The notes: a model not told the origin generated them from the letters alone. DNA of 64,000 bases from a virus (IMGVR_UViG_3300044633_001982), one strand, 5' to 3'; counted from the stretch's first letter, positions 4,955-63,626 are shown. Made by a program: numbers and translations.

Positions 4955-5263
4955 ATGAAATACATTATTACACCTGAACAGTTGGACAAAGTTATGAAAC
5001 GTTATTTTGATGGGGTGTTTAAAGATGCCAAGTGGAGTGAAAAATATATTAGTGGATACGGTGAAACGTGGTCCGGTTTATTTAATCAGGATGGTGAGAT
5101 GTTGGTTGGTTATCCAGAACATGATAATACCACTTATTTTACTGACGGAACATATTTTAGTAATATGTGGGAGTTCTTTAGTATTGACGCAAAAGAATTT
5201 ACTGATGCGATAGGTCGTTACATTAAAAAAACATATGGGTGTGAGTTTGATTATATTTGGTAA
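4955..5263 (+). CDS. hypothetical protein, degenerate leader (MKYIITPEQL)
   Basis: TATTTAT 4942-4948 upstream. Confidence 0.7.
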   Translation: MKYIITPEQLDKVMKRYFDGVFKDAKWSEKYISGYGETWSGLFNQDGEMLVGYPEHDNTTYFTDGTYFSNMWEFFSIDAKEFTDAIGRYIKKTYGCEFDYIW

Positions 5264-5281
5264 TCGGGTATTTATTTTTAT

Positions 5282-5674
5282 ATGAAATACAAAATCACAA
5301 AGGAACAATATTCTAAACTTGTCTATAAGTTAATTGATGCATTTTTTAAGGATGTTAAATTTTACAAAGATGATGGTGGGGGTTATTTGACTTATGATAT
5401 TACTGTTGATGGTGAGGACACTGCTTTTATTCACACAAAAAAAAGTCCTCATATATCTGAGGGATGTAAAAATGAACTTGTAATATATGATGAAACTATA
5501 TTAAAGATAACAAACTTTGTTCCGATTTTTAGGAAGAAGGTATTCTCAAAAATACTCATTAAATATTTTTCTGATATTACTGGTGAAGATATTGATTGTA
5601 TTAATTTTGATATGAAACTTCATGGAAGTGATGATACAATTATATATACAAAAAAATTCAAAAAGAAAAAATAA
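5282..5674 (+). CDS. hypothetical protein, degenerate leader (MKYKITKEQY)
   Basis: TATTTAT 5269-5275 upstream. Confidence 0.7.
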   Translation: MKYKITKEQYSKLVYKLIDAFFKDVKFYKDDGGGYLTYDITVDGEDTAFIHTKKSPHISEGCKNELVIYDETILKITNFVPIFRKKVFSKILIKYFSDITGEDIDCINFDMKLHGSDDTIIYTKKFKKKK

Positions 5675-5742
5675 TTTTTTTCGTTGTTCCAATTCCCCTT
5701 TTTTTATTTTTAAGATATATTTATATATAAATTAAACATATT

Positions 5743-5991
5743 ATGAAAAAGGTTTTAAGATTAACAGAATCAGATTTGATTAAACTTGTTAAGAGGATTG
5801 TTAAAGAAGACGTTTCTTCAACTCCTACTACAACACAAAAAACCATTTCTTTGGATTGTGCAAGAAAAACTGCTGACAATATTGCGTTAACTACCCAACA
5901 GGTTAATAAATGGTGTCCTAAAGTAATTGTTAAACCATCACCACAACCAACACAAAGTAACCCAACACAACAGTTAGGAACTGCTATTTAA
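5743..5991 (+). CDS. leader-tagged (class A, RLTESDL) small protein
   Basis: MKKVLRLTESDLIKLVKRIVKE followed by a T/P/Q-rich part with 2 Cys. Confidence 0.75.
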   Translation: MKKVLRLTESDLIKLVKRIVKEDVSSTPTTTQKTISLDCARKTADNIALTTQQVNKWCPKVIVKPSPQPTQSNPTQQLGTAI

Positions 5992-6007
5992 ACTAATTTT
6001 TTGTAGT

Positions 6008-6073
6008 ATGAAAAAATTCATTATAACAGAAGAAGAGAAAAATAGAATTCTAGTGAGGGGTTTTTATTTTTAA
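6008..6073 (+). pseudogene. orphan class B leader remnant MKKFIITEEEKNRILVRGFYF
   Basis: Leader matches 9844, 13492 and 19526 but runs into the duplicated promoter block and stops after 21 aa. Confidence 0.6.
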
Positions 6074-6102
6074 GATATATTAATATATAAATTAAACATA
6101 TT

Positions 6103-6456
6103 ATGAAAAAAATTGTAAGATTAACAGAATCCGATTTGATAAGACTTGTTAAAAAAGTTATCAAAGAACAAGAATTTGAAGATGATGAATTTGACATGGG
6201 TATGAATTCTGATTGTGATAGAATTATTGATGAAATGGAATACATTTTTCAAGATTTTATGAGATATTACAAAAACTCATCACCTGATACGAAATCTATC
6301 TTAGGAGCTTCGGAGATGTACCACGACTTAGAATCAGAACTTGGTGGTCTTCTTGATATGGCTGAAGAAAATGATTGTGAAAATCGTTACGATATTGAAT
6401 CAACGTATGAGGAACTTTTAGATATGTTTCGTCGACATACTGAACTTGATTTATAA
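6103..6456 (+). CDS. leader-tagged (class A) acidic helical protein
   Basis: MKKIVRLTESDLIRLVKKVIKE. Confidence 0.75.
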   Translation: MKKIVRLTESDLIRLVKKVIKEQEFEDDEFDMGMNSDCDRIIDEMEYIFQDFMRYYKNSSPDTKSILGASEMYHDLESELGGLLDMAEENDCENRYDIESTYEELLDMFRRHTELDL

Positions 6457-6478
6457 ATTTAAAATTACAAGAATATTT

Positions 6479-6887: not shown

Positions 6888-7739
6888 ATGAATAAAGTTG
6901 TTAGATTAACTGAATCAGATTTGGTTAAAATAGTTAAAAGAGTTATTAAAGAAGAAAACAATCCTAATACATTAGTTTCAACAGAAGGGGATAAAGTGAA
7001 AAATTATTACCTACAACATTTTTCAAAACCTGAAACCATTGATAAGTTTAAAAATAAAAATAATATTGATAAAATAAAAAAATATATCCCAACAATAAAG
7101 TATATTTTATACTCAGAAAACAGTGGCGTCGGCGGATTTGTTAACCAAAATAAACCTGGAATTATAAATTTGAACACTAATAATCTAATTCGTGACATTA
7201 AGGGATTTGTAACGTCTAAAGGGACTTACTTGTATGATACAATTCTGCATGAAATGGGTCACTTGATTGATTTCAAATTACAGGAATTGGGTGAAAATAC
7301 AATTGCAAAATCATCAGGGTATTATAAACCAACTGGAGGTAAAGATGATTATGTTTTCTCAGACGTAGAGACTTATGCGAGAGTTCAAAGATTAAGAGAG
7401 ACTTTGGGACTTAATCCAAACGCTAATGGAGAAGAAATTAAAAAGAAATTAATTGAGTTTATCAAACTTAAAAAATTAACTTTTCCAAATGTTAAGATAC
7501 AAGATGTTAAATCACCTACTACAGGGTTATTATTTACACCAACACAAACATCCAAAGGTGAGTTATCTGACCTTTGGAAATTTTATTCTCCAATTAGAAT
7601 TAATAATACAACTGTTCCTGATATTAGTGCGTTATTCGCTAAGTTCTCATCTTATCGAAATGGTGGCTTAGTATTTCTTAATCTTGACGTAATCGGTAGA
7701 GTGAATATTACAACTAAAGGATTACCCGATACAAAGTAA
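6888..7739 (+). CDS. leader-tagged (class A) zincin-like metallopeptidase
   Basis: MNKVVRLTESDL...VIKE leader; ILHEMGH (HExxH) and downstream ETYAR. Confidence 0.7.
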   Translation: MNKVVRLTESDLVKIVKRVIKEENNPNTLVSTEGDKVKNYYLQHFSKPETIDKFKNKNNIDKIKKYIPTIKYILYSENSGVGGFVNQNKPGIINLNTNNLIRDIKGFVTSKGTYLYDTILHEMGHLIDFKLQELGENTIAKSSGYYKPTGGKDDYVFSDVETYARVQRLRETLGLNPNANGEEIKKKLIEFIKLKKLTFPNVKIQDVKSPTTGLLFTPTQTSKGELSDLWKFYSPIRINNTTVPDISALFAKFSSYRNGGLVFLNLDVIGRVNITTKGLPDTK

Positions 7740-8159: not shown

Positions 8160-9236
8160 ATGAAAAAATTATTATTTGTTACTGAAAACGAAAGGCAAAC
8201 AATTTTAGAAATGCATGGGTTCATTAATAACCCAAATGTTATTAATGAGGAATATACCGAATTAGAAAAAATATTTAAAAACCCGTATGCCGAATTAGAA
8301 AAAATATTTATAAACCCTTTTGTTAAAGGTTTGGAAAAATCAAACCCAAAGGCGTTTGATGAATTAAGTAAAATTTTAGATAGAAGAGCCGATGAAACAT
8401 TATCAGGAGCTTTTGATAGGGTCTTATCAAAAGCGGTTGATAATGGAAGTAGAGCAGATGGAGTTAATGCGCTTAAATTTTGTAAACAATTAAGTTTAAT
8501 TAATGACCAATTTGCTGAAGAATTTTATAAAAATCAAATTGAAGTAATTAATAAAATTAGATTACATCCTGAATATTCCAAACAATGGGAACTAATGGTT
8601 AAAAATAATTTTGGTGAAAAAGTTCTTGAGAAATATAAAAAAAATAATATGGGTTCAGTTAAACCTGTTGAAAAAACCCCAACTGAGCCTAAACCATCTG
8701 AGAAACCTGCCGAACAAAAACCAACCCCACCTAAACCTGCGGAACAAGTAAAACCTCAAACGGGAATATCAATAGGAAATTTCACAGTTAGGCCACTAAA
8801 TGACGGTTCAAAACTTGCCAAATTTATGGACGCATTTTTTGAAAAAGTTTTTTACGAAGGAAATAATAAATTTATGAACGGATTTCCAAAAGAAGTTATA
8901 AAACAATTTACACCTGAAACAAAAAGTTACTTATTACAATTATTAGATATTGTTAAACGAAAAAACCTTACAAGTGGTCTTGAACAGGGTTTTAAGTCCG
9001 ATTATGGTCGTTTACCTAAAACTGTTGATGAGGAAATTGAGATGTTATCGAACAATTTTTGGGGTGGAAAGTCACAGTTTGGAGGTCGTAGACAAGGGGG
9101 AATACAAGGAATGTTAGGCGAAGCACCCATTCCGACAGAGAATGTTTTGGACAACCTTACGAATACTACGATGTCACCGAGTCAAAAAAAAGAACTTATG
9201 GAATACGGTCACAAAATTGAGGTGTTTAAAAAATAA
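8160..9236 (+). CDS. leader-tagged (class B) protein, paralog of 25062-26099
   Basis: Shared N-terminal ~160 aa, Pro/Lys/Glu linker, distinct C-terminal domain; 33-nt tandem duplication near 8258-8320. Confidence 0.75.
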   Translation: MKKLLFVTENERQTILEMHGFINNPNVINEEYTELEKIFKNPYAELEKIFINPFVKGLEKSNPKAFDELSKILDRRADETLSGAFDRVLSKAVDNGSRADGVNALKFCKQLSLINDQFAEEFYKNQIEVINKIRLHPEYSKQWELMVKNNFGEKVLEKYKKNNMGSVKPVEKTPTEPKPSEKPAEQKPTPPKPAEQVKPQTGISIGNFTVRPLNDGSKLAKFMDAFFEKVFYEGNNKFMNGFPKEVIKQFTPETKSYLLQLLDIVKRKNLTSGLEQGFKSDYGRLPKTVDEEIEMLSNNFWGGKSQFGGRRQGGIQGMLGEAPIPTENVLDNLTNTTMSPSQKKELMEYGHKIEVFKK

Positions 9237-9843: not shown

Positions 9844-10275
9844 ATGAAACATCTTTTAAATAACATTTCTGAAGAAGAAAAAAACAGAATCCGTGAACAA
9901 CACACAGGAGGTAAAAAAATCGTAATTGAAAACTTTAATAAATTGTTGAATAGCAAGTTGGGTGATGCTAAACCATTGATTAGTGAGCAAAAAACTGAAG
10001 ACCCAACTAAAGACATGTATAGTGTTTTAATTGGTTATTTAGTTAAACTTTCAGAAGATGGAGGTAAAAAAGGAATCCAAGGATTGGATGACATGGCGGC
10101 AATCAAAGAAACGAGAATGTATTTTGAAGCGTTGAGGGATGGAAAAACCCCAAAACCTTTGAGTAAACCTGCTGAAATTGTTAAAAATTATGCAATGGCC
10201 GAAACAAGAAAAATGCAAGGTCAAGAATTAGTTGCTTTAAAACAGTATGGTGAGAACGTTAAAACTAAACTTTAA
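9844..10275 (+). CDS. leader-tagged (class B) helical protein
   Basis: NNISEEEKNRIREQH...PLISE. Confidence 0.75.
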   Translation: MKHLLNNISEEEKNRIREQHTGGKKIVIENFNKLLNSKLGDAKPLISEQKTEDPTKDMYSVLIGYLVKLSEDGGKKGIQGLDDMAAIKETRMYFEALRDGKTPKPLSKPAEIVKNYAMAETRKMQGQELVALKQYGENVKTKL

Positions 10276-13069: not shown

Positions 13070-13495
13070 ATGAAAATTTCTTTACACGAAAACATTGAAA
13101 GAATTAAGTCATTATTAAATGTTAATGAACAAGCTGGCTCCGCACCTTGTAAACAACCCAATCAGATAAAAACAACTTCAGGTGAGACCGAACTCATGGG
13201 ATATATTTTAGATGTTCTTGATGATAACAATATAAATTTAAAAAATTGTAAAGATAGAAAATGTATTGATGATAAAATGTTGGCTGAAAAAATCATAAGT
13301 GAGTTACTTAACTCTTTAGTTGATAAAAGAGATTTGGGTACTGAGTTAAGTTCTGAGAACAAAAGAAATTTTGACTACTACACTAAAATAATGAGAGGGA
13401 TATTTCCAACGTATAATAAAGCTCACTACAATAGAGGCACATGCGCCATGAAATCAAAAGTTAGTAAAACAACTACAACAACATATTATAAATGA
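13070..13495 (+). CDS. leader-tagged (class C) Cys-containing protein
   Basis: ENIERIKSLLNVNE; TATTTAT 13057-13063. Confidence 0.7.
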   Translation: MKISLHENIERIKSLLNVNEQAGSAPCKQPNQIKTTSGETELMGYILDVLDDNNINLKNCKDRKCIDDKMLAEKIISELLNSLVDKRDLGTELSSENKRNFDYYTKIMRGIFPTYNKAHYNRGTCAMKSKVSKTTTTTYYK

Positions 13496-14604
13496 TTATG
13501 AAAACAAATTTATTTGAAATTAGTCAAGACGAAAAAAACAGAATTTTAAACCTTCATGAAGGTCACACAAAAAATCATTATTTAAATTTAATTAATGAAG
13601 AATCAACGTACAACCCTAAGTCAGAAGCAATTCAAAAAAAATTAAGTGAATTAGGTTACGGTAAAATTGTTGGAAGTCCTGATGGTAAATACGGACAAAA
13701 AACAGCTTGTGCAGTTGCTAAATTCCAAGAGGACAACAATTTAATCGTTGATGGTAAGGTTGGTAAAATAACTGCTACAAAACTTGGGGTTGATGCTTAT
13801 TTTCCTAAAGGTGTTAGTATTATTTCTTGTGGTACCAAAAATACTGACAATAAACAAAAAGTTACTGATGACTCAGGTAAACAAAATTGTCAGTCAGTTT
13901 TACCTGAAACATGTTCAAAAATTAGTCCAAATAAGGAAACTACTATTGGTAATGGTGGAAGTGAGGGTTGTTCACAATATGTTGGACTGTCTATAGGTGA
14001 AAAATTAGGTGATGCTTGGAAAGCCTTTAACGCGGCTAAAAAATACGGAGTTAAATATAATATGTTTACAGACGGCTCAATTGATTGGAATAATGTTAGG
14101 AACAAAATGAAATCCAATAAAATAAATTCATCAACTTGTGATTGTTTTACTGAGGAAGGTGAAAGTAAAGATAAATCTTGTAGTTCAGGTTCTGAGATTG
14201 CCAAAACTATTAGTTCATTTTATCCGTCATCGTCTAATTTCAGTAATGGTTCGTTGAAAGTAGGTGATATAGTTGGTATGTACTACAGAGATTCAGGTAA
14301 CAAAGGTAAAGCTTTTTGTGAAAGAGCTTCACAAAGAGGATTAGATAGTAGTGGTAATGTTAAAGATACTGACCCATTTACATTTAATACCCACGTTGGA
14401 TATGTTGGAGCGATTAAAAATGGTGTACCGATAATTTATCATAGTGTACACGGAACAAGATTAGCGACACCGGCAAACCAATTAAAAAGTAAAAATGGTA
14501 GTGCGATGATTGTTTGGGTAACAGGCGGACCTAAATCTGCTGAACAAGATTCTACAAAACCAAAAGATGTATCTTGGTATGAAAAAATATCAGATTGGTT
14601 TTAA
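13492..14604 (+). CDS. leader-tagged (class B) peptidoglycan-binding + NlpC/P60-like hydrolase
   Basis: ISQDEKNRILNLH...LINE; PGBD (DGKYG..T..AVAKFQ....L.VDGKVG..T); GCSQYV, VGDIVG, THVG motifs. Confidence 0.75.
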   Translation: MIMKTNLFEISQDEKNRILNLHEGHTKNHYLNLINEESTYNPKSEAIQKKLSELGYGKIVGSPDGKYGQKTACAVAKFQEDNNLIVDGKVGKITATKLGVDAYFPKGVSIISCGTKNTDNKQKVTDDSGKQNCQSVLPETCSKISPNKETTIGNGGSEGCSQYVGLSIGEKLGDAWKAFNAAKKYGVKYNMFTDGSIDWNNVRNKMKSNKINSSTCDCFTEEGESKDKSCSSGSEIAKTISSFYPSSSNFSNGSLKVGDIVGMYYRDSGNKGKAFCERASQRGLDSSGNVKDTDPFTFNTHVGYVGAIKNGVPIIYHSVHGTRLATPANQLKSKNGSAMIVWVTGGPKSAEQDSTKPKDVSWYEKISDWF

Positions 14605-15618: not shown

Positions 15619-15975
15619 ATGAAAAAAATACGTTTAACTGAAACAGAATTAACATCTTTAATTCGAAATATTGTTATTGAAACTCAAAATGAAGAGATGA
15701 ACGAAGAAATGGAAAATTACTTCAACCCTGAAGCTATGGAGACAGGTGAGGCGATTGTTACCATTATTGGGACTGTAATCGGAATGTTAGGAATTGCAGG
15801 TTCTCACTACATTAAAGCAGCAATCAAAAAATTAAGAAAATCAGGTAACGATGCTGAAGCTGATAAAGTGGAAGAGGCATTACAGGCTGAAATGAGTAAA
15901 ATGAAAAGTCGTGAGATGAGTTCTGGTGAAGATGAACCAGTAATGGAAAGTCGTATTGTAAGAAGAAGAAAATAA
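15619..15975 (+). CDS. leader-tagged (class A) protein with one TM helix
   Basis: MKKIRLTETELTSLIRNIVIE; IVTIIGTVIGMLGIAG. Confidence 0.7.
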   Translation: MKKIRLTETELTSLIRNIVIETQNEEMNEEMENYFNPEAMETGEAIVTIIGTVIGMLGIAGSHYIKAAIKKLRKSGNDAEADKVEEALQAEMSKMKSREMSSGEDEPVMESRIVRRRK

Positions 15976-53783: not shown

Positions 53784-55400
53784 ATGCAAAAAATGGCAGA
53801 AAATAAAAACTTAGTTGAAGAAGCGGTAATCCAATTAAAAAATTTGGAAGAAGCTATCAATGAAAACGCAAAAGAAATACTTGAGTCAACAATGAAGCAA
53901 GAAATTAGCGAGCTTGTAAAGGAGTCTTTAAAAGAGGCTGAAGAAGAAGAGGAAACTGAAGATTTTGAAGAAGAATCTGATGAATCGGAAGAAGAAGAAT
54001 CTGATGAATTTGAAATGGAAGACGAAGAAGGTTCTGAAGAAGAATTTGATGAGTTTGAAATGGATGATGAAGAAGAGTCTGACGAAGAAGGTTTTGAAGA
54101 TGAAATGGGACAGGATGATGAAGTAATTGATTTTACACAAATGCCTGATTCTGATGAAACTCAAGATTTGTTATTAACAGTTTTCAAAAAAATGAAACCA
54201 GAAGATGAAGTCGAAATCCAAAAAGACGGGGAGTATGCACATTTGAAAGACGGTGACGATGAGTACCTTATTCCAATGAACGAATCTCGTGAGGATGATG
54301 ACGATGACAATGACGACGAAGAATTTGAGTCAGAGTTAGAAGAAACTATCTATGAAATTTCTATGGACGACGAAACAGGTGAAATGGAAGAACAATGGCA
54401 AGGTTTGGCCGCTGATATGGCAATTGCCGCAGCACCAGTTATTGCTGACAAAATGTTTGGAGACGATGAAGAAGAAGAATTAGAAGAAACTATTTACGAA
54501 CTTCACATGGATGGTGAAGATGGTGAAGATGATGATGAACTTCCTTCTCCTCCAAAAGAAGAAAGACCTGGTGGGATGTTTTATGAAAGAGACATGGATG
54601 TTGAGTATGAAGAAGATGAAGATGATGATATGGAAGACGGATACGAAGAATTTCCAATGGATGATTTAGAAGAAATGGATTATCAATCTGAAGAATATAC
54701 AGAAGAAATGATGCATGAGACTACTAAACCAAAAGTTGGTAAGGGTGGTAAAATCGGAAAACCTAAATTTTCATACAAGAAAACTACTGGTGGTTTTAAA
54801 GAAAAAATGACAGCCGCTAATCCTACAAAAGGTACAGGTAAACCAAAGTTTGAATACAAAGAATCAACTAAAAAAATGAAGAAAGGTGAATTTAAAGAAG
54901 CTTCTCGTACATTAGGTTCAGGTTCAAAATTTAGAAAAGGTGGTCTACCGAAACCAGCCGCTCATTCGGCATTCAATATTAATATTGAAGAACACTATTC
55001 TTTGATGGAAGAAGTAGAAATGTTGAGAGCTAAAAATGAAGAGTACAGAAAAGCTTTGAATATTTTCAGAGACAAACTTAACGAAGTTGCTGTATTCAAT
55101 TCAAATTTAGCGTACACTACAAGATTATTTACTGAACACACAACATCAAAGCAAGAAAAAATAAATGTTTTAAGAAGATTTGATTCTGTAGAAACACTTA
55201 AAGAATCTAAAAATCTATATAAAACTATTAAGGACGAACTTTCATCAACTACTAAAGGAAAAATCACTGAGTCAATCGAAAAAGTAATGGACAACGAACC
55301 AGTAATTACAGGTTCTGCTCAAAACTTAATTGAATCTAAGACTTACGAAAATCCTCAGTTTATGAGAATGAAGGACTTAATGACAAAAATAATAAAATAA
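53784..55400 (+). CDS. prohead scaffold/core protein (gp22-like)
   Basis: Very acidic with many [LI]xE sites, coiled C-terminus (KLNEVAVFNSNLAY); directly before MCP; start moved to 53784. Confidence 0.8.
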   Translation: MQKMAENKNLVEEAVIQLKNLEEAINENAKEILESTMKQEISELVKESLKEAEEEEETEDFEEESDESEEEESDEFEMEDEEGSEEEFDEFEMDDEEESDEEGFEDEMGQDDEVIDFTQMPDSDETQDLLLTVFKKMKPEDEVEIQKDGEYAHLKDGDDEYLIPMNESREDDDDDNDDEEFESELEETIYEISMDDETGEMEEQWQGLAADMAIAAAPVIADKMFGDDEEEELEETIYELHMDGEDGEDDDELPSPPKEERPGGMFYERDMDVEYEEDEDDDMEDGYEEFPMDDLEEMDYQSEEYTEEMMHETTKPKVGKGGKIGKPKFSYKKTTGGFKEKMTAANPTKGTGKPKFEYKESTKKMKKGEFKEASRTLGSGSKFRKGGLPKPAAHSAFNINIEEHYSLMEEVEMLRAKNEEYRKALNIFRDKLNEVAVFNSNLAYTTRLFTEHTTSKQEKINVLRRFDSVETLKESKNLYKTIKDELSSTTKGKITESIEKVMDNEPVITGSAQNLIESKTYENPQFMRMKDLMTKIIK

Positions 55401-55426: not shown

Positions 55427-57220
55427 ATGGGAGCATTATTAGAATCAGGTCTTGTTGGTAACATCGGTCTTAAGCACCTTAAAGTTATCAAAGAAGATAC
55501 TATTAACAAATGGGACAAATTAGGGTTCCTTGAAGGTCTTCGTGGCCACCTAAAAGAAAACGTAGCACAATTATATGAGAACCAAGCTTCTCACTTAATC
55601 AACGAAGCTACTTCAGACGGAAATTCAGGTTCATTTGAAACTGTTGTTTTCCCGATTATCAGACGTGTATTCTCTAAATTATTAGCGAATGAAATCGTTT
55701 CTGTACAAGCGATGAACTTACCAATCGGTAAATTGTTCTTCTTTGTACCAAAAATCCAAGGTTACACTGGTACAACTCAGTTAACTAATGATACTACATC
55801 TCCATGGGCTCACAGAGCACCTGTAGGAGCACCTGGTAACTATCCTGGTGACCCAAATGCAGGTTATAATGATGCTGCAGCTTTCACTAAGAATCTTTAT
55901 GATTTGTATTATGAAGGTAATGAGGCGGCTTTAGACCCACCTGGATTGTATGATTACTCAAAAGGACGTTGGTCAGCGACTACTGCGGCGACTTTCACTC
56001 AAGTATGGACAGGACAAAGATTAGTACAATCAGGTTATCCAAGTACTACTTACAGAAAAGTAATCGTTTCTTTATCTGGTTTCAGTACTTCAGGTGAAGG
56101 TAGATTAGTTGGTCCTGAAGGTAACCAAATGGATACTGAGGATTTCTTAGCAAGTTTACGTTTAGTTTCTTCAGCAAATACACAAAACCCATTATTGTTC
56201 AGAGTTGTTACTCAAGTATACGGTCAAGGTATTGTTAACTACGGTTCACAATCACAAGCTGCTTGGCCAACTCAAGGTAACGGTGGTTACTACAATAACA
56301 TTTGTAGTGCATCTGGTGTTATCTACTTAGAAGTTGATTTAAGTGTACCTTGTTCTGTAACTGATAACAGTTTAGATGGTTATTCAGGTTCTACATTCGC
56401 AGCTGACACAGCCACTGGTTCTATCATTGCGGTTTATAAAATCTATGAAGAACTTGAGTTTGAAGACGCTATCGGTGAAGTTTCTTTTGAATTAGATTCA
56501 GTAACTGTTACTGTAACTGAAAGAAAGTTAAGAGCTCAGTGGTCTCCTGAATTGGCTCAAGACGTTGCGGCATTCCACAACATCGATGCTGAGGCTGAAT
56601 TAACAGCTTTATTATCTGAACAAGTTGCGGCTGAAATCGACCGTGAAATCTTACGTGACTTACGTAAAGGTGCAGCTTGGCAATTACGTTGGGATTACAA
56701 CGGATGGAAGAGAGGAACTGCAGCTAACCCATTAACTCAGTACACTCAAAAAGACTGGAACCAAACATTGATTACTGCAATCAACCAATTGTCAGCACAA
56801 ATCCACAAGTCAACACTTCGTGGTGGAGCTAACTGGATTGTTGTATCTTCTGAGGTTTCTGCAATCTTCGATGACTTAGAATACTTCCACGTATCTAACG
56901 CTTCTCCTGAGCAAGACCAATACAACATGGGTATTGAGAGAGTTGGTACTTTAGCTGGTCGTTACCAAGTATACCGTGACCCTTACTTCCCGCCAAACCA
57001 AGTTTTGATTGGACACAAGGGTACTTCATTACTTGACACTGGTTACGTTTACGCACCATATGTACCTCTACAATTAACTCCAACTATGTACAATCCATTC
57101 AACTTCACACCTATCAAAGGTATCATGACACGTTACGCTAAGAAGATGGTTAACAACCGTTTCTACGGACGTATCACAGTTGACGGTGTACGTACATTTG
57201 ACTTGAGAGAGTTAAGATAA
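55427..57220 (+). CDS. major capsid protein (T4 gp23-like)
   Basis: IVSVQAMNLP.G.LF, RKLRAQWSPELAQD..AFH.IDAE.EL..LLSE....EIDREI, GYVYAPYVPL, GIMTRY. Confidence 0.96.
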   Translation: MGALLESGLVGNIGLKHLKVIKEDTINKWDKLGFLEGLRGHLKENVAQLYENQASHLINEATSDGNSGSFETVVFPIIRRVFSKLLANEIVSVQAMNLPIGKLFFFVPKIQGYTGTTQLTNDTTSPWAHRAPVGAPGNYPGDPNAGYNDAAAFTKNLYDLYYEGNEAALDPPGLYDYSKGRWSATTAATFTQVWTGQRLVQSGYPSTTYRKVIVSLSGFSTSGEGRLVGPEGNQMDTEDFLASLRLVSSANTQNPLLFRVVTQVYGQGIVNYGSQSQAAWPTQGNGGYYNNICSASGVIYLEVDLSVPCSVTDNSLDGYSGSTFAADTATGSIIAVYKIYEELEFEDAIGEVSFELDSVTVTVTERKLRAQWSPELAQDVAAFHNIDAEAELTALLSEQVAAEIDREILRDLRKGAAWQLRWDYNGWKRGTAANPLTQYTQKDWNQTLITAINQLSAQIHKSTLRGGANWIVVSSEVSAIFDDLEYFHVSNASPEQDQYNMGIERVGTLAGRYQVYRDPYFPPNQVLIGHKGTSLLDTGYVYAPYVPLQLTPTMYNPFNFTPIKGIMTRYAKKMVNNRFYGRITVDGVRTFDLRELR

Positions 57221-57524: not shown

Positions 57525-58292
57525 TTAAGATAAACTATTCATTATATTTTCAATCTTAGATGCACTTCCAGAAACTGCACTATTTCTTCTTGACTGAACC
57601 GCAACTTTTTTAAGTTCAGATACTGACGTATTACCTTTTTCCACCTCTTCATTAATTGCGTTTGCAAATTTTTGAAAAAATCCTGAGCCATTCCAAGAAG
57701 CGTATATAAAGTGGAATAATAACGCGTTACTTTTCATAACAATATTTTTAGCCTCAGGAGATAAGTATTTATCAGCAAGTTTATTAAAATGAGGTTCCAT
57801 TATTTTAACCACCAGGTCTATTAGTTTTTGTTCTAAATTACCACCTCTATAATAACGTTTCCAAACTCTTCTATTTTTATTCCCATCAATCAAATTCCAA
57901 AATTCAACACCGGCATTGCTTGTATTTAATGTTCCTCCGTGTTTCCTATCAATTCCAAACATAGTTTCACCTGAGTCACCCATTCCTGAAGATTTATGCC
58001 ATTGTGGGTTAAAATATCCACCTTCTAATTTATTAATAACTAATTCAGTCATTTTTTTAAAATCTCCTGATATTGTACCAAATGAATTGTCTGAACCATT
58101 ATTGGTAGATGTGTCAGATGTATTAGAAGAATCTTTATCATCTTTGTTAATTAATTTACCCCCAATTCTTTTTTTCACCCTATCAAGCATTGCTTGTATG
58201 AACGAATCACCAACAATATTACTATCATTTTGTTCAGTGATATTATAATTTACAATTTTTTTTAATTGTTCTTCAGTAACTTTAATTTTCAT
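57525..58292 (-). CDS. leader-tagged (class A) GH108-like lysozyme
   Basis: MKIKVTEEQLKKIV..NITE; LEGGY...DSGETMFGID. Confidence 0.75.
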   Translation of the reverse strand: MKIKVTEEQLKKIVNYNITEQNDSNIVGDSFIQAMLDRVKKRIGGKLINKDDKDSSNTSDTSTNNGSDNSFGTISGDFKKMTELVINKLEGGYFNPQWHKSSGMGDSGETMFGIDRKHGGTLNTSNAGVEFWNLIDGNKNRRVWKRYYRGGNLEQKLIDLVVKIMEPHFNKLADKYLSPEAKNIVMKSNALLFHFIYASWNGSGFFQKFANAINEEVEKGNTSVSELKKVAVQSRRNSAVSGSASKIENIMNSLS

Positions 58293-59872
58293 ATCTTATC
58301 TCCAAATTTTTCATAGAAATATTTAAGGATTGCAAAATTCATATGAGCGTACCCTTTAGTACAGAATACGTGTCCTGAATAAGAACCTTTATCTTTATTT
58401 GAACAGTACCATTCTAATCTTTTTCTTGTTTGTCCATAAAATCCAGTAGTTCCCCAATTTTTTGGGTCACAAACCAAATAAGTATTTGGTCCAAAAGATA
58501 TTCCTGTTTCGTATGTTGATGGGTCAATTAAACCGACTAATTTTAAACTACTATCTTGAGCATAATTCCATGTTTCTCGTCCACCTTGTGAAAATCCTGC
58601 AATAGATGATACCACTCCACCAAATTTTTCTTTTACGTATTTTTTAACGTTGTTTAAATTATTAAAATGGTGAGTAATTACAATTATTTTATTATTACTG
58701 TAAGGTCTCAAATAAGGTATGTATTTTTCCATTGCGGAACGATTTGCGGTACCCTTTGAGTATCCTGAAGTATGAGCTCCCCCAAAAAATACGTGTACTT
58801 GATTACCTTTATATGAATCAGATTTAATAATCACATATTCATTATCTCCTGTCACTTCTGAATTAGTTTCTGATGGTTTTGTTTGAACTTTTTTAGGGTC
58901 TTGAAGTCTCTCCAAAGTTTTTTTATCTACTGATGATGATACAGTTAATGATTGGTCTTCTTGAAAAGTTTCTAATGCCTTTTTAGTTTTAGGACCAAAT
59001 AAACCATCAACTCCACACTTACCTAAGTCATAGTTCAAACGGTTCAAGATGTTCTGAATTTCGGTAACTGGTGACCCCATATGACCAATTCTCATTACAA
59101 CATCCCCTTTTTTAATTTGTTCTAACGTTGGGGACTCTGAATATGACTTTGTTGGTTGACAACCAGACTTCTTAAATTGTTTTACGGTTTCTTTTTCAAG
59201 TTTAGGGTCTACTTTATCACTTTTATAATAATCATCAATTTTAGAATTCGGTATAACTTCTGTTTTACCCCCACTATTTAAAGACTCTCCCCCGACATAA
59301 AATAAATGCCAAGGTTCTGCTTTACGCAGTACACCATCTCTTAAATAAGATACTTTAAAACCAAATTTTCCACAATTATTTTCAACCCATTTTTTAACAT
59401 CTGAATTCTGATTCCACCAAGACGGTTCAACACTTATTATATCAAATGCCTTTCCTGTATGATGTTGAGAAAATCCGGGTAACGCAGAATACTTTTGTCT
59501 TTGTGACACACCACCATCCCTTTTTATTTTACCACCAAATGTATCGACTTGTTTGGAATAACTTCTATATGATGAGACCACGGTAGCTTTAGATGACACC
59601 TCAGGAAATTCTTTTTTTAATGATGATAACAATTTTGATATTTGGATTTTTGCCTTTGAAACCTCCCCACCATTGTCTTCATAGTACTGACCTTCTTGTT
59701 TCATCTCATCATCCACATGTTTATCATTAATTGTAGTATTGTACTTTGATTCAACACTTGATAAAGATGATTTAATATCAGAAGGTAAATCTCTATTAAC
59801 TTTTTCAGTTAATAAACCATATTTTTTTAAAATATCATTTTTTTCAGATTCAGAAATAATTAACTTTCCCAT
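58289..59872 (-). CDS. leader-tagged M15B peptidase + peptidoglycan-binding domain + alpha/beta-hydrolase
   Basis: LIISESEKNDIL..LLTE; SYRSY..Q, SQHHTGKAFD, EPWH; VDGLFGPKT..ALETFQ; GFSQGG. Confidence 0.8.
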   Translation of the reverse strand: MGKLIISESEKNDILKKYGLLTEKVNRDLPSDIKSSLSSVESKYNTTINDKHVDDEMKQEGQYYEDNGGEVSKAKIQISKLLSSLKKEFPEVSSKATVVSSYRSYSKQVDTFGGKIKRDGGVSQRQKYSALPGFSQHHTGKAFDIISVEPSWWNQNSDVKKWVENNCGKFGFKVSYLRDGVLRKAEPWHLFYVGGESLNSGGKTEVIPNSKIDDYYKSDKVDPKLEKETVKQFKKSGCQPTKSYSESPTLEQIKKGDVVMRIGHMGSPVTEIQNILNRLNYDLGKCGVDGLFGPKTKKALETFQEDQSLTVSSSVDKKTLERLQDPKKVQTKPSETNSEVTGDNEYVIIKSDSYKGNQVHVFFGGAHTSGYSKGTANRSAMEKYIPYLRPYSNNKIIVITHHFNNLNNVKKYVKEKFGGVVSSIAGFSQGGRETWNYAQDSSLKLVGLIDPSTYETGISFGPNTYLVCDPKNWGTTGFYGQTRKRLEWYCSNKDKGSYSGHVFCTKGYAHMNFAILKYFYEKFGDKI

Positions 59873-59875
59873 TAT

Positions 59876-60126: not shown

Positions 60127-61428
60127 ATGAAAGAAACCCATTTAATAAAAAAAATAAGGGAGATAATAAAAGAAACCAACTCAAGTTCAGCAGCAGGATT
60201 TTATAACGTACCAATGAGACCCGGATTAAGATTGTGGAAGAAAAAAGAAATGGGTGCGTTTACTGAAAAACTTAATGGGTACGATAACGCAGAATTATAT
60301 GTTGACGCGTTAGATGGAAATATTGACACTAAAAATGCAAAGGAAAAAGAGAGAATCTCAAGAAAAATATCTAAATATTATGATAAACACCCAACTCAAA
60401 ACGATGATGATGGTAATGTTTTAAATGATGTCAATATTAAAGAAGCAACATATAATGATGGAGGTGAATATAGCGCACCATTAAGTTTTGAGCCAATTAA
60501 ATGGGATAAACATACTATGGCACCATATGTATATCATTCCACTCATGACCATAATGAAAAAGGTAAATTAGGTAACATTGGTGGTAAAGTATCATTCAAA
60601 CATGGATATATGGAAAAACCACACCCAAAAAAAGGTAAGTCAAAAAAAATAATAACACCTAAAGAAAATAAAGATGTAGTTAATGAGGATTTAGCAGTTT
60701 GGTTTGGTAAAAAAAAGAAACCAAAAGGTAGTAAACAACCTAAAGGTCCTTGGGTTAATATTTGTAAAAAAGTAGATGGTAAACATCCACCTTGCGGAAG
60801 ACCTCAGGCAACTGATAGAGCTTACCCAAAATGTAGAGCTGCGGGCGTTGCTGGGAAAATGTCAGATTCAGAAAAAAGAAACGCGTGTCAACAAAAAAGA
60901 AGAGCAGAAAAAACTCATTCAAAATCAGGTACAGGTAATAAACCTAAAATGGTTTCTCATAAAACAAATGAAAATATGTCAAAAAAAATTAAAATTACAG
61001 AATCACAATTAAAGAACTTGGTTTATTATCTTAATGAACAAAATACATTACCAATAACTTTATCATGTATAGAACCTGATAACCCAAGTTCTCCAGGAAT
61101 ACAATTTAAAAATTTAAAATTTGTGAATAAAGGTACACAAACTTTAAATGATAAAGAAGAGACAATTTATGTTTTTGAGAAGACTAGTCTTGAACCTTAT
61201 AAACAAGAATCCGTACAACAAAAATTTACAACAGTAAAAATTGAAAACCCTGAGTTGGTTAAAGTTTTAGAACAACGAGGATATAAGAACGTATCAAATT
61301 TTAGTTTTTTAAAAACCTACCATCTAAATAGAAAGTTTTATTGTGGAGTCTTCTTCACAAAAGATAACGATAATTCAGATAATTTTGCAAAAACAAATGA
61401 TATTGTTTCATTAAAACCAACAAAGTAA
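60127..61428 (+). CDS. modular virion-type polyprotein-like protein
   Basis: Modules separated by [ILV/T]xE sites; EDLAVWFG..PWVNIC..CGR..YPKCR module; internal class A leader at 60976. Confidence 0.7.
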   Translation: MKETHLIKKIREIIKETNSSSAAGFYNVPMRPGLRLWKKKEMGAFTEKLNGYDNAELYVDALDGNIDTKNAKEKERISRKISKYYDKHPTQNDDDGNVLNDVNIKEATYNDGGEYSAPLSFEPIKWDKHTMAPYVYHSTHDHNEKGKLGNIGGKVSFKHGYMEKPHPKKGKSKKIITPKENKDVVNEDLAVWFGKKKKPKGSKQPKGPWVNICKKVDGKHPPCGRPQATDRAYPKCRAAGVAGKMSDSEKRNACQQKRRAEKTHSKSGTGNKPKMVSHKTNENMSKKIKITESQLKNLVYYLNEQNTLPITLSCIEPDNPSSPGIQFKNLKFVNKGTQTLNDKEETIYVFEKTSLEPYKQESVQQKFTTVKIENPELVKVLEQRGYKNVSNFSFLKTYHLNRKFYCGVFFTKDNDNSDNFAKTNDIVSLKPTK

Positions 61429-61433
61429 TTTTA

Positions 61434-61685
61434 TTATTTTGTAGTTAAAGAATCTAATTTTTGTAAATCATCATTAGTTGTAAAATACAAACCAACAAAT
61501 TTGTCAAACTCACCTTTAGGTAATTTTTTAAGGTGTCTCGCTAAAGTTTGTTGTGAGTACCAATCATCAGAATGTTTTTCTTGATTTTCAATAACACAAG
61601 TTTTTGTTTGTTTACAACATTCTTTGTTTGATGTACAAGAGGACAATAGAAAAACAACTGATAATAAAAAAATAAAAGATTTCAT
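61434..61685 (-). CDS. small lipoprotein
   Basis: MKSFIFLLSVVFLLSS-C. Confidence 0.75.
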   Translation of the reverse strand: MKSFIFLLSVVFLLSSCTSNKECCKQTKTCVIENQEKHSDDWYSQQTLARHLKKLPKGEFDKFVGLYFTTNDDLQKLDSLTTK

Positions 61686-61757
61686 ACTTATAAATATTTA
61701 ATTTTATATTGTAAAGTTACTTAAAAATTTTGATTATTCAAAATATTTATTAAAAAA

Positions 61758-62150
61758 ATGAAAGTTTGTTTAAAATACCCAAAAAACACTTTAACTAGTA
61801 AGGAACTAAAAGTACTTGGTAAATTTATTCAGTTATTACAAAAAATAATGCCACTTTCAAACAAGATAAAAATTGTCTTTTTAGATGAGAGAGTTGGTAA
61901 AATGACAACAGGTTCTTATAAAAAGAGTAAACACATTATTAAAGTCTTAATTAAAAATAGGTTACTTGCCGATTTGTTAAGAACGTTATCCCATGAATGG
62001 GGGCACGCTTTTGATAACGAACATATTAATTTTGAAGATAGGAGAGAAGTTGGGGGAGAATCTGAAAATTTTGCAAATGCAATATCAGGAGCTGTAACCA
62101 AACACTTCATCAAAAAAAATCCTCAAGTTGAGGATATTATTTTTGAGTAA
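61758..62150 (+). CDS. small zincin-like metallopeptidase (ImmA/IrrE-like)
   Basis: LRTLSHEWGHAF...ENFANA. Confidence 0.65.
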   Translation: MKVCLKYPKNTLTSKELKVLGKFIQLLQKIMPLSNKIKIVFLDERVGKMTTGSYKKSKHIIKVLIKNRLLADLLRTLSHEWGHAFDNEHINFEDRREVGGESENFANAISGAVTKHFIKKNPQVEDIIFE

Positions 62151-62549
62151 TTAATTACAAATTTTAGAATAGATAGTTTCTAAAGAATGTTTGATTTGTA
62201 CATCTAAATCTTTTTCCATCTGTAAAGCCCTTTCTTCCATCTCTTTTTTGAAAAAGTCTTTTAATTTTGACCAATCAATATCAGGTAGTTTAATAAAATA
62301 ACTATAAGTATGGTTAGTAATTGTTACCTCACCATCTTCCATAGTAATAAAAATACCATATTGCTCGTTTTTAATGTATTTTTTACGAGAAATCGGGGCA
62401 ATTAACAACTCAGAATTAGGATTGTGAATCAATCTTCTACAAATTGCGGTACATTGATTTATACGTGTCCTTTGAAGTTTTCTAAGTTCACTTTCATTGA
62501 TACTTCTAACAAAAATTTTGTAACGGGCAATTAATCTTTTTAGTGACAT
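62151..62549 (-). CDS. hypothetical protein
   Basis: TTG-N20-TATCTTTG promoter at 62570-62600 (-). Confidence 0.7.
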   Translation of the reverse strand: MSLKRLIARYKIFVRSINESELRKLQRTRINQCTAICRRLIHNPNSELLIAPISRKKYIKNEQYGIFITMEDGEVTITNHTYSYFIKLPDIDWSKLKDFFKKEMEERALQMEKDLDVQIKHSLETIYSKICN

Positions 62550-62593
62550 TTTTTATTTATTTATGTCTACAAAGATATTGCAAAAATTTTAAT

Positions 62594-63118
62594 TTAACAA
62601 TAAGGTGATGAACATTTTTTCTTACCATCTAAACCTGGCATTCTTCCTTTACAAACCTGAACTGCGTATCCGTTAGCGTATGCACTAGGGTAAACTTTAA
62701 ACTTTGATTTTGCTGCGGATTTACCACGAGAACAAAGTTTTGTTCCTGACTTTTTACGACCTTCATTCATTTGATATAACGCCAAGGCTTCATCAGGGTT
62801 TTCATTATCCATCGCCATTGACATATCGTCTAAAACATTGTCATTTTCCATCATATCACCATCATCTACATTCATAGACAATTCCATACCATCTTTTTTT
62901 GTTTCATTCATTAGAAAGTCAAATACTTGGTCCATATTGTTTTTTGCCTCAGCAATATGGTCTTGAGCCCAATCATGTCCATTAGATAGAATCTCCTCAA
63001 CCATATTACGGTCTAAATCTAACAATAAACCACATTGTCTTCTCATTTGTTCTAAATTACTGAAAAACATATATCTTTCAGATTCTTCTTTTAAAATTTT
63101 TTTAATTAATTTTTCCAT
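62594..63118 (-). CDS. modular hypothetical protein
   Basis: MEKLIKKILKEE leader; C-terminal KLCSRG.....KFKVYPSAYANG module after MNE. Confidence 0.7.
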   Translation of the reverse strand: MEKLIKKILKEESERYMFFSNLEQMRRQCGLLLDLDRNMVEEILSNGHDWAQDHIAEAKNNMDQVFDFLMNETKKDGMELSMNVDDGDMMENDNVLDDMSMAMDNENPDEALALYQMNEGRKKSGTKLCSRGKSAAKSKFKVYPSAYANGYAVQVCKGRMPGLDGKKKCSSPYC

Positions 63119-63119
63119 A

Positions 63120-63626
63120 TTATCCTTTTAATTCTTCTTTTAATTGGTCACAAATTATAGAAAGAAAAGATTCTATTTCTCTTTCTAAACCCTCATATTT
63201 TTCAAACAAATTTTCACCATCATTAGATTCAAAATTACAAACTGAATATTCACCATCAGAAGTACAATAAATCTCACCATAATATTCATCACCACTAATT
63301 GTAAAATAACCTGAATGAATAATTTCATCTAAATTTTGTTCAGTTACCTCATACTTAAATGACATTGACGGAATTCCGGGAGATTCGTCAAATCTCCAAG
63401 TTTCACCACTTTTAACCAATTCTTTTGAAGTTGTTAATTCTTCATCGTCTAAAAACTCATTATTTAATGAATAGTGGTCAAGATATTTTTTTTCTTTATC
63501 GGTTAAAGATTTCATACCTGATGAATTAATTTTGTCAAGTATTGCGTCAATTTCTCCCATCCCCTCAGATAAAAATGTATCTATTATAAATTTTAATTGA
63601 GATTCTTTAAGTATTAATTTTCTCAT
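63120..63626 (-). CDS. leader-tagged (class A) acidic protein
   Basis: MRKLILKESQLKFIIDTFLSE; IDAILDKIN..GM.SLT..EK..L. Confidence 0.7.
   Translation of the reverse strand: MRKLILKESQLKFIIDTFLSEGMGEIDAILDKINSSGMKSLTDKEKKYLDHYSLNNEFLDDEELTTSKELVKSGETWRFDESPGIPSMSFKYEVTEQNLDEIIHSGYFTISGDEYYGEIYCTSDGEYSVCNFESNDGENLFEKYEGLEREIESFLSIICDQLKEELKG

What the first reader, a model, noticed from the sequence alone, without database searches (positions are those of the whole stretch)
4955..63626. Shared N-terminal leaders on about 25 unrelated proteins: a candidate modular capsid-targeting and cargo-loading system
SEEN: unrelated domains carry the same short leaders. Class A, MKK[IV]xx[LI][TS]E[ST][DEQ]Lxx[LI][VI]xx[VI][ILV]xE, occurs at 5743, 6103, 6888, 14657, 15619, 26096(-), 57525(-), 63120(-) and internally at 60976, with degenerate forms at 4955, 5282, 10275, 12071 and 29731. 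Class B, [IV][ST]E.EK.RIL..H...[LI]xE, occurs at 8160, 9844, 13492, 19526, 25062, 28116, 58289(-) and as a remnant at 6008. Most leaders end in [ILV]-x-E (VIKE, VINE, LINE, LISE, ITE, LTE, LSE). The capsid protein's N-terminal arm has VIKE and LINE|A (E60). Most of these genes, or their operons, follow TATTTAT, as do terL, portal, protease and scaffold. KNOWN: T4 gp21 cleaves after Glu in (I/L)-x-E, and T4 internal proteins carry a short capsid-targeting sequence removed by gp21. INFERENCE: this phage uses a swappable helical tag to load a large, variable cargo (lysins, zincin, membrane proteins) into the prohead for ejection into the host.
Basis: partly seen in the sequence, partly recalled or inferred. 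Interest (0 to 1): 0.85.

Follow-up and report, generated by a model that had tools for sequence, protein, structure and literature searches.

The report
Shared capsid-loading tags on phage proteins
An uncultured giant T4-like phage of lake Bacteroidota starts many unrelated small proteins with a few interchangeable short peptides that end in the cut site of its head protease, so they are most likely an enlarged version of T4's "load into the capsid, then cut off" tag, though no experiment yet shows packaging.

Summary
The leaders are real and far from chance, but fewer than the claimed 25 hold up. Profiles built only from other contigs recover 5 class A and 5 class B genes in the window, always at residue 1. 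They also recover an orphan class B stub. Five claimed members are unsupported.

The class A tag marks about 10,000 protein clusters worldwide. It occurs on T4-like jumbo-phage contigs that carry an S77 prohead protease. Conservation stops abruptly at Glu22. The capsid protein's maturation site, placed by alignment to T4 gp23 Glu65|Ala66, reads L-I-N-E|A, like the leader ends. One zincin-like cargo family carries four different leaders, and all end in h-x-E-Q/E.

The best reading (0.6) is an expanded, multi-class version of T4's capsid-targeting propeptide. Packaging, cleavage and ejection are untested. Peptidoglycan-binding cargo does not fit simple co-injection with the DNA.

This scan noted the same kind of leader on other DNA before (e1-5322155, e1-5340806, e1-3862018). 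I found no paper describing it.

The parts
5743..5991 (+). Class A leader gene (leader 5743-5808, 22 codons ending V-K-E). The cargo is 60 aa and Thr/Pro/Gln-rich.
   Evidence: Independent class A profile E 4e-13, residues 1-23. The block 5701-5808 is duplicated at 6061-6168.
6008..6073 (+). Orphan class B leader stub (21 codons, then a stop), cut off by the inserted promoter + class A cassette.
   Evidence: Class B profile E 1.4e-7 in the six-frame scan. Sequence shown.
6103..6456 (+). Class A leader gene (leader 6103-6168). The cargo is an acidic three-helix bundle behind a disordered acidic linker.
   Evidence: Profile E 6e-17. AlphaFold2 model: helix 9-23, pLDDT < 50 for residues 19-35, confident bundle 41-113. 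The linker varies in length among homologues.
6888..7739 (+). Class A leader gene (leader 6888-6953). The cargo is a zincin-like HExxH protein.
   Evidence: Profile E 3e-16. H121, E122 and H125 are invariant in 40 homologues. The weak top Foldseek rows are zinc peptidases. Homologues carry four different leaders or none.
8160..9236 (+). Class B leader gene (leader 8160-8249, ends V-I-N-E). Paralogue of 25062.
   Evidence: Class B profile E 2.6e-7, residues 1-33.
9844..10275 (+). Class B leader gene (leader about 9844-9930, ends I-V-I-E).
   Evidence: Class B profile E 1.1e-5.
13070..13495 (+). Class D leader gene (leader 13070-13129, motif ENIxRIK...V-N-E-Q).
   Evidence: Regex hit in the window. 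The same motif is N-terminal 12 times and internal 2 times in related contigs. Class D replaces class A on homologues of 6888.
13492..14604 (+). Class B leader gene (leader 13492-13599, ends L-I-N-E). The cargo is PG_binding_1 plus a Cys/His C-terminal domain.
   Evidence: Class B profile E 2.5e-12. PF01471 E 7e-14. A homologue (35% over 321 aa) carries a class A-type leader instead.
14657..15055 (+). Class A leader gene (leader 14657-14722).
   Evidence: Profile E 2e-15.
15619..15975 (+). Class A leader gene, diverged (leader 15619-15681, ends V-I-E). The cargo has one hydrophobic segment.
   Evidence: Profile domain E 4e-4. TM-like segment at residue 42.
19526..19888 (+). Class B leader gene (leader 19526-19615, ends L-F-E).
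   Evidence: Class B profile E 3.6e-10.
25062..26099 (+). Class B leader gene (leader 25062-25151, ends V-I-N-E-Q). C-terminal hydrophobic segment.
   Evidence: Class B profile E 1.2e-14. TM-like segment at residue 298.
29731..31299 (+). Marginal half-leader (matches the second half of class A, ends V-L-L-E). The cargo carries PG_binding_1.
   Evidence: Class A profile E 0.04-0.13, profile positions 11-22. Half-leader regex. PF01471 E 6e-12.
57525..58292 (-). Class C-type leader (MK.KVTEEQL..., ends I-T-E-Q).
   Evidence: Class C regex. A homologue (37% over 205 aa) carries a class B leader.
58289..59872 (-). Marginal class B leader (ends L-T-E) on an M15 VanY/LdcB-type peptidase with PG_binding_1.
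   Evidence: Class B profile E 0.008-0.017. PF02557 2e-22 and PF01471 2e-12. NF041194 1e-19.
60127..61428 (+). Two-tag ORF: an N-terminal half-leader (ends I-I-K-E) and an internal class C/A-like copy at 60976-61041 (ends L-N-E-Q).
   Evidence: Sequence. The internal core motif occurs internally only 4 times in 621,651 residues of related ORFs. Two-leader proteins are also common among the database hits.
62594..63118 (-). Short 11-residue leader (ends I-L-K-E).
   Evidence: The cargo is 62% identical to a protein that carries the full class A leader, and homology starts right after the leader.
63120..63626 (-). Class C-type leader (ends L-S-E). The cargo has a DUF6576-like segment.
   Evidence: Class C regex. 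PF20216 4e-12. A related DUF6576-like cargo pair in other contigs carries class A in one and class C in the other.
26096..26719 (-). Weak class C-like N-terminus on a protein with two hydrophobic segments. Doubtful member.
   Evidence: Loose regex only. No profile support.
52738..53457 (+). Prohead protease of the T4 gp21 type (S77). It has I-L-I-E19 near its own N-terminus.
   Evidence: PF03420 7.6e-26. Sequence.
55427..57220 (+). Major capsid protein (gp23 family). The predicted maturation site L-I-N-E60|A lies at 55595-55606.
   Evidence: PF07068 1.2e-72. Alignment with T4 gp23 puts E60 opposite T4 E65. The site is conserved in four clade relatives, and a fifth reads L-I-Y-E|A.
53784..55400 (+). 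Scaffold/core protein candidate in the gp22 position, with a poly-acidic centre of about 250 aa.
   Evidence: Gene order as in T4. Sequence and h-x-E sites. TATTTAT lies 13 nt before the 53784 start. No family hit.

Best explanation
The leaders are capsid-targeting propeptides of the T4 type, enlarged and diversified. Each is an N-terminal amphipathic helix: class A about 22 aa, class B about 31 aa, class D about 20 aa, plus short forms of 8-11 aa. The helix is followed by a conserved hydrophobic-x-Glu junction and a disordered linker.

Inferred mechanism. During late infection the helix docks the protein onto the assembling prohead core. The S77 prohead protease then cuts after the Glu and frees the cargo inside the head. 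The cargo would leave with the DNA at the next infection.

Shown: the tags exist, they are N-terminal, they are under peptide-level selection, and they are modular and interchangeable. They are confined to T4-like phage contigs. They end in the motif of the capsid protein's homologous maturation site.

Inferred: docking to the core, cleavage, packaging and ejection.
For: 1. T4-type head module with an S77 protease.
2. Alignment with T4 gp23 puts its known cut L-T-E65|A opposite L-I-N-E60|A here. The site is conserved in the clade. It matches the leader ends V-I-[KNS]-E.
3. In 108 distinct class A proteins, column entropy is 0-1.4 bits at the conserved positions (two positions are variable). 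At Glu22, E is 99/108 and P3 is I/V/L in 104/108. Entropy then jumps to 3.7-4.0 bits. The next stretch is disordered and rich in indels.
4. One zincin-like family carries class A, class B-like, class D or an 8-aa stub, and all end h-x-E-Q/E just before the conserved domain. Cargo homology starts right after the Glu in several swapped pairs. The duplicated promoter + leader block in the window ends at the K-E codons.
5. 113 class A cargos fall into 94 BLAST clusters. A profile finds 9,962 cluster representatives, and nearly all listed matches start at residue 1.
6. All four contigs that are at least 90% complete, and both at 82%, have S77. In cellular genomes only 4 of 120 pattern hits are leaders. 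At least one sits on a mis-binned T4-like phage contig with UvsX-like and SSB genes.
7. An independent T4-like lineage uses a different 10-aa tag ending L-K-E on at least 33 cargo clusters, with S77 in 3 of 3 contigs that are at least 90% complete. T4 IPII and IPIII begin with their 10-aa tag ending I-A-E|A. The L/I-x-E rule and the capsid-targeting function in T4 are described in PMC9026906.
8. The cargo is small and mostly soluble.
9. Synonymous codon diversity at conserved residues shows selection on the peptide.
Against: - There is no proteomic or biochemical evidence, and no cultured relative carries the tag.
- Co-occurrence with S77 inside one clade is confounded by descent.
- h-x-E is common in this AT-rich proteome (64% of other genes have it in residues 12-45).
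- The tags are 2-3 times longer than T4's and show no sequence similarity to it.
- Peptidoglycan-binding domains are the commonest recognisable cargo (5/109 class A, 7/48 class B). Together with the M15 peptidase, they would act in the periplasm, not where a myovirus is thought to deliver head proteins.
- Some class C members (4955, 5282) have no nearby h-x-E.
- The invariance of Glu22 (D in 1 of 186) is matched by Glu9 (186/186), so it is not specific to a cut site.
- The shared promoter motif is not specific.
- The complex prediction gave no answer.
Confidence: 0.6

Rival explanations
1. An uncleaved docking helix. The leader is a permanent adaptor that fixes variable proteins to some conserved phage structure other than the prohead core (capsid surface, neck, tail), or to a conserved phage or host factor. 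The h-x-E-Q end is then simply the helix cap before a linker.
For: - An amphipathic helix followed by a flexible, often Thr/Pro-rich linker and binding modules (PG_binding_1, LysM, OmpA) resembles displayed adhesin architecture.
- Glu9 is as invariant as Glu22, so the conservation may reflect binding.
- Internal copies occur without a Met.
Against: - Four unrelated leader sequences on one cargo family share only the h-x-E-Q/E end. One binding partner would not be expected to accept all four.
- That end equals the capsid protein's homologous cut site.
- Very short 8-11-aa forms exist.
Confidence: 0.17
2. An envelope sorting signal. The leaders route proteins to the periplasm or cell wall late in infection, in lysis or envelope remodelling, through an unknown phage-specific path.
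For: Peptidoglycan-binding domains and an M15 peptidase recur among the cargo.
Against: - The leaders are highly charged and have no hydrophobic core, as the sequences show directly.
- Only 4-6% of cargos have a hydrophobic segment.
- Most cargos are small acidic or basic ORFans.
- No export machinery is linked to them.
Confidence: 0.08
3. An expression or recombination cassette. The conserved unit is really DNA (promoter plus start region) that spreads by recombination, and the peptide is a passenger.
For: - The promoter + leader block is duplicated 360 bp apart, and a class B leader was truncated by the insertion.
- The upstream cassette is shared by 5743, 6103, 6888 and 15619.
Against: - 14657 has the peptide without the cassette.
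- Conserved residues use many synonymous codons, including both Arg and both Leu codon families.
- Internal copies occur far from any promoter.
- The reading frame and N-terminal position are strictly kept.
Confidence: 0.04
4. A protease-cut propeptide without delivery. The tags bring proteins into the prohead as accessory core or scaffold components, or hold enzymes inactive. These are degraded or stay in the head and are not ejected effectors.
For: - In T4 most core proteins are cut and lost (PMC9026906).
- Many cargos are tiny acidic helical bundles like core proteins.
Against: - Enzymatic cargo (zincin-like, M15 peptidase, a nucleoside deoxyribosyltransferase) has no obvious role inside a head.
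- Extreme cargo turnover (94 clusters from 113 proteins) fits conflict proteins better than structural ones.
Confidence: 0.1

Closest known systems
Phage T4 capsid targeting sequence (CTS) of internal proteins IPI, IPII, IPIII and the Alt propeptide, removed by the gp21 prohead protease
   Same: - Extreme N-terminal tag on unrelated, fast-evolving small proteins.
- Ends in L/I-x-E.
- The phage has an S77 gp21-type protease and gp20/gp22-position/gp23 head genes in T4 order.
- The capsid protein is cut at the homologous site (PMC9026906).
   Different: - The tags are 20-34 aa rather than 10-19, with no sequence similarity to the T4 tag.
- At least four interchangeable classes occur within one genome.
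- There are roughly 18 tagged genes in this 64-kb window, and 8-18 class A+B hits per 82-100%-complete genome of the freshwater clade, against four in T4.
- Internal (polyprotein-like) copies occur.
- The cargo includes cell-wall enzymes.
- Nothing has been tested experimentally.
Propeptides of head and ejection proteins in giant phages phiKZ, 201phi2-1 and SPN3US
   Same: A jumbo phage with many head proteins, processed after Glu by a gp21-related protease. The proteins are loaded into the capsid and ejected (PMC9026906).
   Different: Those phages use S/A-x-E and have no shared leader sequence across cargos. Here the P3 residue is hydrophobic as in T4, and the propeptides are near-identical copies.
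Encapsulin cargo-loading peptides
   Same: A short conserved peptide that directs diverse cargo into an HK97-fold shell. This is an analogy recalled from my own knowledge, not tested here.
   Different: They are usually C-terminal, are not cleaved, and bind the shell protein. No homology.
Mobile promoter cassettes (PeSL) that mediate gene shuffling in T4-type phages
   Same: A promoter-containing block is repeated in front of different genes and marks recombination junctions. The comparison is recalled from my own knowledge, not tested here.
   Different: Here the repeated block extends 22 codons into the gene, and the peptide itself is under selection.
Ejection (internal core) proteins of podoviruses T7 and P22
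   Same: Capsid-stored proteins that act in the cell envelope, one of which (T7 gp16) has a cell-wall hydrolase domain. This is the only known precedent for wall-active cargo. Recalled from my own knowledge; P22 is mentioned in PMC8402733.
   Different: They have no shared cleavable leader, and the virion type is different (short tail).

Membership tests
T4-type CTS / gp21-cleaved propeptide system | The genome encodes an S77 (gp21-type) prohead protease within a T4-like head module. | tested here: met
   PF03420 7.6e-26 at 52738-53457, flanked by Portal_T4 and Gp23 hits. Also present in all six leader-bearing contigs that are at least 82% complete.
T4-type CTS / gp21-cleaved propeptide system | The tag sits at the extreme N-terminus of otherwise unrelated proteins. 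| tested here: met
   All window hits start at residue 1. About 120 of 130 IMG/VR pattern hits have Met five residues upstream. 94 cargo clusters from 113 proteins.
T4-type CTS / gp21-cleaved propeptide system | The tag ends in L/I-x-E, the gp21 cleavage motif. | tested here: met
   Class A: P3 is I/V/L in 104/108 and P1 is E in 99/108. Class B ends [YILV][LI]xE[QN]. Class D and the short forms do likewise. Some class C members fail.
T4-type CTS / gp21-cleaved propeptide system | The same motif stands at the capsid protein maturation site. | tested here: met
   By homology only: T4 E65|A66 aligns with L-I-N-E60|A. Conserved in relatives.
T4-type CTS / gp21-cleaved propeptide system | Sequence relatedness to the T4 tag. 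| tested here: not met
   The T4 IPII/IPIII tag was read from the T4 record. By eye there is no similarity beyond the terminal hydrophobic-x-E, and the length is 10 aa against 20-34.
T4-type CTS / gp21-cleaved propeptide system | The tag is removed by the protease in proheads, and mature cargo is present in virions and ejected. | not testable with these tools
   No cultured member. Complex prediction gave no answer.
T4-type CTS / gp21-cleaved propeptide system | Expression together with head genes (late). | tested here: inconclusive
   TATTTAT precedes terL, portal, protease, scaffold and 12/21 leader genes, but also 27/76 other genes. RNA runs are held only as contigs.
Sec/Tat/lipoprotein signal peptides | A hydrophobic core of about 10 or more residues after a basic N-terminus. 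| tested here: not met
   Leaders have charged residues every 2-4 positions. Hydrophobic segments occur in only 4-6% of the proteins, and downstream of the leader.
Known Pfam / PHROG / NCBIfam domain | The leader matches a curated family. | tested here: not met
   No family covers the leader in Pfam scans of 109 + 48 proteins. PHROGs and NCBIfam gave no leader hit for 6888, the only class A protein scanned there. No paper contains the string LTESDL.

The most novel reading that the evidence does not exclude
The interchangeable tags form an address code that lets one read a myovirus's whole injected proteome from its sequence. In this clade that proteome would include cell-wall-binding hydrolases and a zincin-like enzyme. 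That would make a T4-like phage with a podovirus-style ejectosome acting in the host envelope, fed by about 10,000 rapidly exchanged cargo families.
Probability: 0.3. Interest if true: 0.78.

Novelty: new variant of a known kind. Interest (0 to 1): 0.6.

Why it matters
If the tags work as in T4, a simple profile search would list the proteins that an uncultured jumbo phage carries into its host. These are prime candidates for anti-defence and takeover factors, which are otherwise invisible among ORFans.

The scale is large: about 10,000 protein clusters for one tag, at least four interchangeable tags, and swapping at a fixed junction. That would make capsid loading a major route of gene innovation in T4-like phages, not a curiosity of T-even phages.

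The wall-binding cargo would challenge the view that myovirus head proteins go only to the cytoplasm.

The tags are also ready-made parts for loading foreign proteins into large capsids.

Tried and rejected
- Complex prediction of the scaffold candidate (53784-55397) with the first 60 residues of the 6103 protein gave no answer (score 0.00, both chains poorly folded). This is not evidence either way.
- tblastn of the leader against 50,697 cultured-phage records found no match. megablast of the head module also found none. So no proteome of a cultured relative is available.
- Literature: the string LTESDL occurs in no paper. Searches for capsid targeting with jumbo phages returned only T4, phiKZ and SPN3US work.
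- The window's own assembly is not held, so whole-genome counts came from relatives.
- Sequencing runs: the stretch is held by lake-water DNA runs. RNA runs hold small shares and only as contigs, so expression timing could not be read.
- Foldseek against the PDB gave no significant match for the 6103 cargo. For 6888 it gave only weak zinc-peptidase rows.
- By eye, 57525 resembles a GH108 muramidase. Pfam, NCBIfam and PDB sequence searches do not support this, so it is not claimed.
- The promoter motif was rejected as an argument for co-regulation, because it precedes 40% of all genes.
- Plain [ILV]-x-E counting was rejected as non-discriminating.
- Glu-not-Asp at P1 as a test for a Glu-specific protease was inconclusive, because Glu9 is equally invariant.
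- The contig of the leaderless zincin homologue could not be searched for S77.

Full report
WHAT THE WINDOW IS. The window is 30% G+C. It carries a T4-type head module: terminase (46127-47875), Portal_T4 (49483-51297), an S77 prohead protease (52738-53457, PF03420 7.6e-26) and a Gp23-family capsid protein (55427-57220). A ribosomal protein bS21 gene lies on the opposite strand inside this module (52011-52199, PF01165 2.4e-9). That arrangement is the signature of the freshwater 'bS21 phages' of up to 331 kb, which are predicted to infect Bacteroidetes (PMC9723584). The closest cultured relatives share at most 46% capsid identity. Uncultured IMG/VR contigs of 241-322 kb share 76-78%. The stretch is held by many lake-water metagenome runs.

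THE OBSERVATION. To avoid circularity I collected leaders from elsewhere. A DNA pattern for R-L-T-E-S-D found more than 115 IMG/VR loci. In about 120 of 130 matches a Met lies five residues upstream and the class A sequence follows. A pattern for the class B core found more than 119 loci. About half of these are true N-terminal class B leaders, and the rest are chance matches.

Profiles built from these foreign leaders recover 6103, 6888, 14657, 5743 and 15619 as class A. They recover 25062, 13492, 19526, 8160 and 9844 as class B, and also the truncated copy at 6008-6073. All hits begin at residue 1, and the six-frame scan gave no hit at E < 0.01 in any other ORF. 58289(-) and 29731 are marginal, and 28116 is not significant.

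A third motif, class C (MKIIITExQL), covers 57525(-) and 63120(-). In 621,651 residues of related ORFs its core is N-terminal 33 times and internal 4 times. The internal copy at 60976 also fits this core. So was an 11-residue tag on 62594(-). 4955, 5282, 10275 and 12071 have no support. So about 10 members are solid and about 8 credible, not 25.

HOW NON-RANDOM IT IS. Among 108 distinct class A proteins, column entropy is near zero at the conserved positions from Met1 to Glu22 and 3.7-4.0 bits from two residues later. Their cargos fall into 94 BLAST clusters out of 113. A profile search of 1.84 billion cluster representatives finds 9,962 at E <= 1e-3 and 867 at E <= 1e-10. Nearly all listed matches are at residue 1. 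Some proteins carry a second, internal copy without a Met. Conserved residues use many synonymous codons, so the peptide is what is selected. In cellular genome contigs only 4 of 120 pattern hits are leaders. At least one of those lies on a mis-binned T4-like phage contig with UvsX-like, exonuclease and SSB genes.

LINK TO THE HEAD PROTEASE. T4 gp21 cuts after Glu in L/I-x-E, and the 10-19-residue propeptides of the internal proteins target them to the prohead core (PMC9026906). I read the T4 IPII/IPIII tag from the T4 record. Aligning T4 gp23 with the window's capsid protein puts T4's L-T-E65|A opposite L-I-N-E60|A. That site is conserved in four relatives, and a fifth reads L-I-Y-E|A. The leader ends read V-I-[KNS]-E-[QSN] in class A and [YL]-L-x-E-Q in class B. 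The protease itself has I-L-I-E19, like T4's L-I-E9.

All leader-bearing contigs that are at least 82% complete carry S77. This is one clade, so on its own it is weak evidence. As an independent contrast I tested a different lineage of 170-210 kb T4-like phages. There, a 10-residue tag ending L-K-E heads at least 33 cargo clusters, and S77 is present in 3 of 3 contigs that are at least 90% complete.

MODULARITY. The block 5701-5808 (promoter-like cassette plus 22 codons) recurs at 6061-6168 and stops exactly at the K-E codons. Between the copies, a class B leader is cut off after R-I-L. Homologous cargos carry different tags. The cargo of 13492 has class B here and a class A-type leader elsewhere. 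The cargo of 57525 has class C here and class B elsewhere. One pair is 87% identical but has class A in one and class C in the other. In several pairs, similarity starts right after the Glu.

The zincin-like family of 6888 (invariant H-E-x-x-H) appears with class A, class B-like, class D, an 8-residue stub or no leader. Every leader ends h-x-E-Q/E just before the conserved domain. An AlphaFold2 model of the 6103 protein shows a low-confidence helix (residues 9-23), a disordered acidic linker, and a confident three-helix bundle. The linker varies in length among homologues.

WHAT DOES NOT FIT. Plain [ILV]-x-E is too common to count as evidence. The TATTTAT motif precedes 39 of 97 genes and is not specific to leader genes. 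The commonest recognisable cargo domains bind peptidoglycan: PG_binding_1 or LysM in 5 of 109 class A proteins, and PG_binding_1 or OmpA in 7 of 48 class B proteins. The window has an M15 LdcB/VanY-type peptidase with a marginal leader. Such proteins act in the periplasm, so either some cargo is released there or the tags serve another purpose. Hydrophobic segments are rare in cargo (4-6%), which speaks against a membrane-sorting role. Glu9 is as invariant as Glu22, so part of the conservation reflects binding, not cutting. The only complex prediction gave no answer.

VERDICT. The best explanation (0.6) is an expanded, multi-class version of the T4 capsid-targeting propeptide. Its known elements were tested and met at the sequence level; its functional elements are untested. 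It is a new variant of a known kind. No paper describes it. Earlier notes of this scan describe the same kind of leader on other DNA. I re-tested two of them here.

Noticed in passing
window 52011-52199 (-): A ribosomal protein bS21 gene sits on the opposite strand between the portal region and the prohead protease. This places the phage in the published freshwater bS21 phage group predicted to infect Bacteroidetes.
   Followed up: partly
window, e.g. 46116, 49468, 51301, 52717, 53771, 5718, 6867: TATTTAT(A) lies 11-25 nt upstream of 39 of 97 start codons, on the gene's strand. This implies very short or absent 5' leaders. The octamer is the reverse complement of the T4 late promoter TATAAATA (recalled from my own knowledge).
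   Followed up: partly
It is N-terminal 12 times and internal 2 times in related contigs, and it replaces class A on homologues of 6888.
   Followed up: partly
window 62594-63118 (-): An 11-residue leader ending I-L-K-E. A 62%-identical homologue in another contig (L048) carries the full 22-residue class A leader instead.
   Followed up: partly
window 57525-59872 (-): Two genes just downstream of the capsid gene, on the other strand: an M15 LdcB/VanY peptidase with PG_binding_1, and a protein with an E-G-G-Y motif that looks muramidase-like by eye but has no database support. Both have leader-like N-termini.
   Followed up: partly
window 53784-55400 (+): The scaffold candidate has a poly-acidic region of about 250 residues, then a basic stretch and a helical C-terminus. 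It is twice as long as T4 gp22 and matches no family.
   Followed up: no
window 60127-61428 (+); proteins P0001, P0003, P0005, P0011: ORFs with two leader copies, one N-terminal and one internal. The internal copy often has no Met, as if two cargos were made as one polyprotein.
   Followed up: partly
L462 10001-10849 (270-kb metagenome contig): Leaderless distant homologues of the 6888 zincin-like protein lie next to an ArdC-N antirestriction-type gene and an IS605-family transposase pair. Whether that element has an S77 protease could not be checked.
   Followed up: no
G010 (401-kb IMG/VR contig, L042); L019, L033, L266, L290: A longer flavour of the class A leader (RLTESDLH.I.KESV..IL.E) occurs in a 401-kb contig that carries S77 (G010) and in contigs from a fecal MAG (L266, L290). 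G010 has no class B leaders.
   Followed up: partly
window 63120-63626 (-), residues 25-53: A DUF6576 (PF20216) match on a class C-tagged protein. A related cargo pair in other contigs has class A in one and class C in the other.
   Followed up: no
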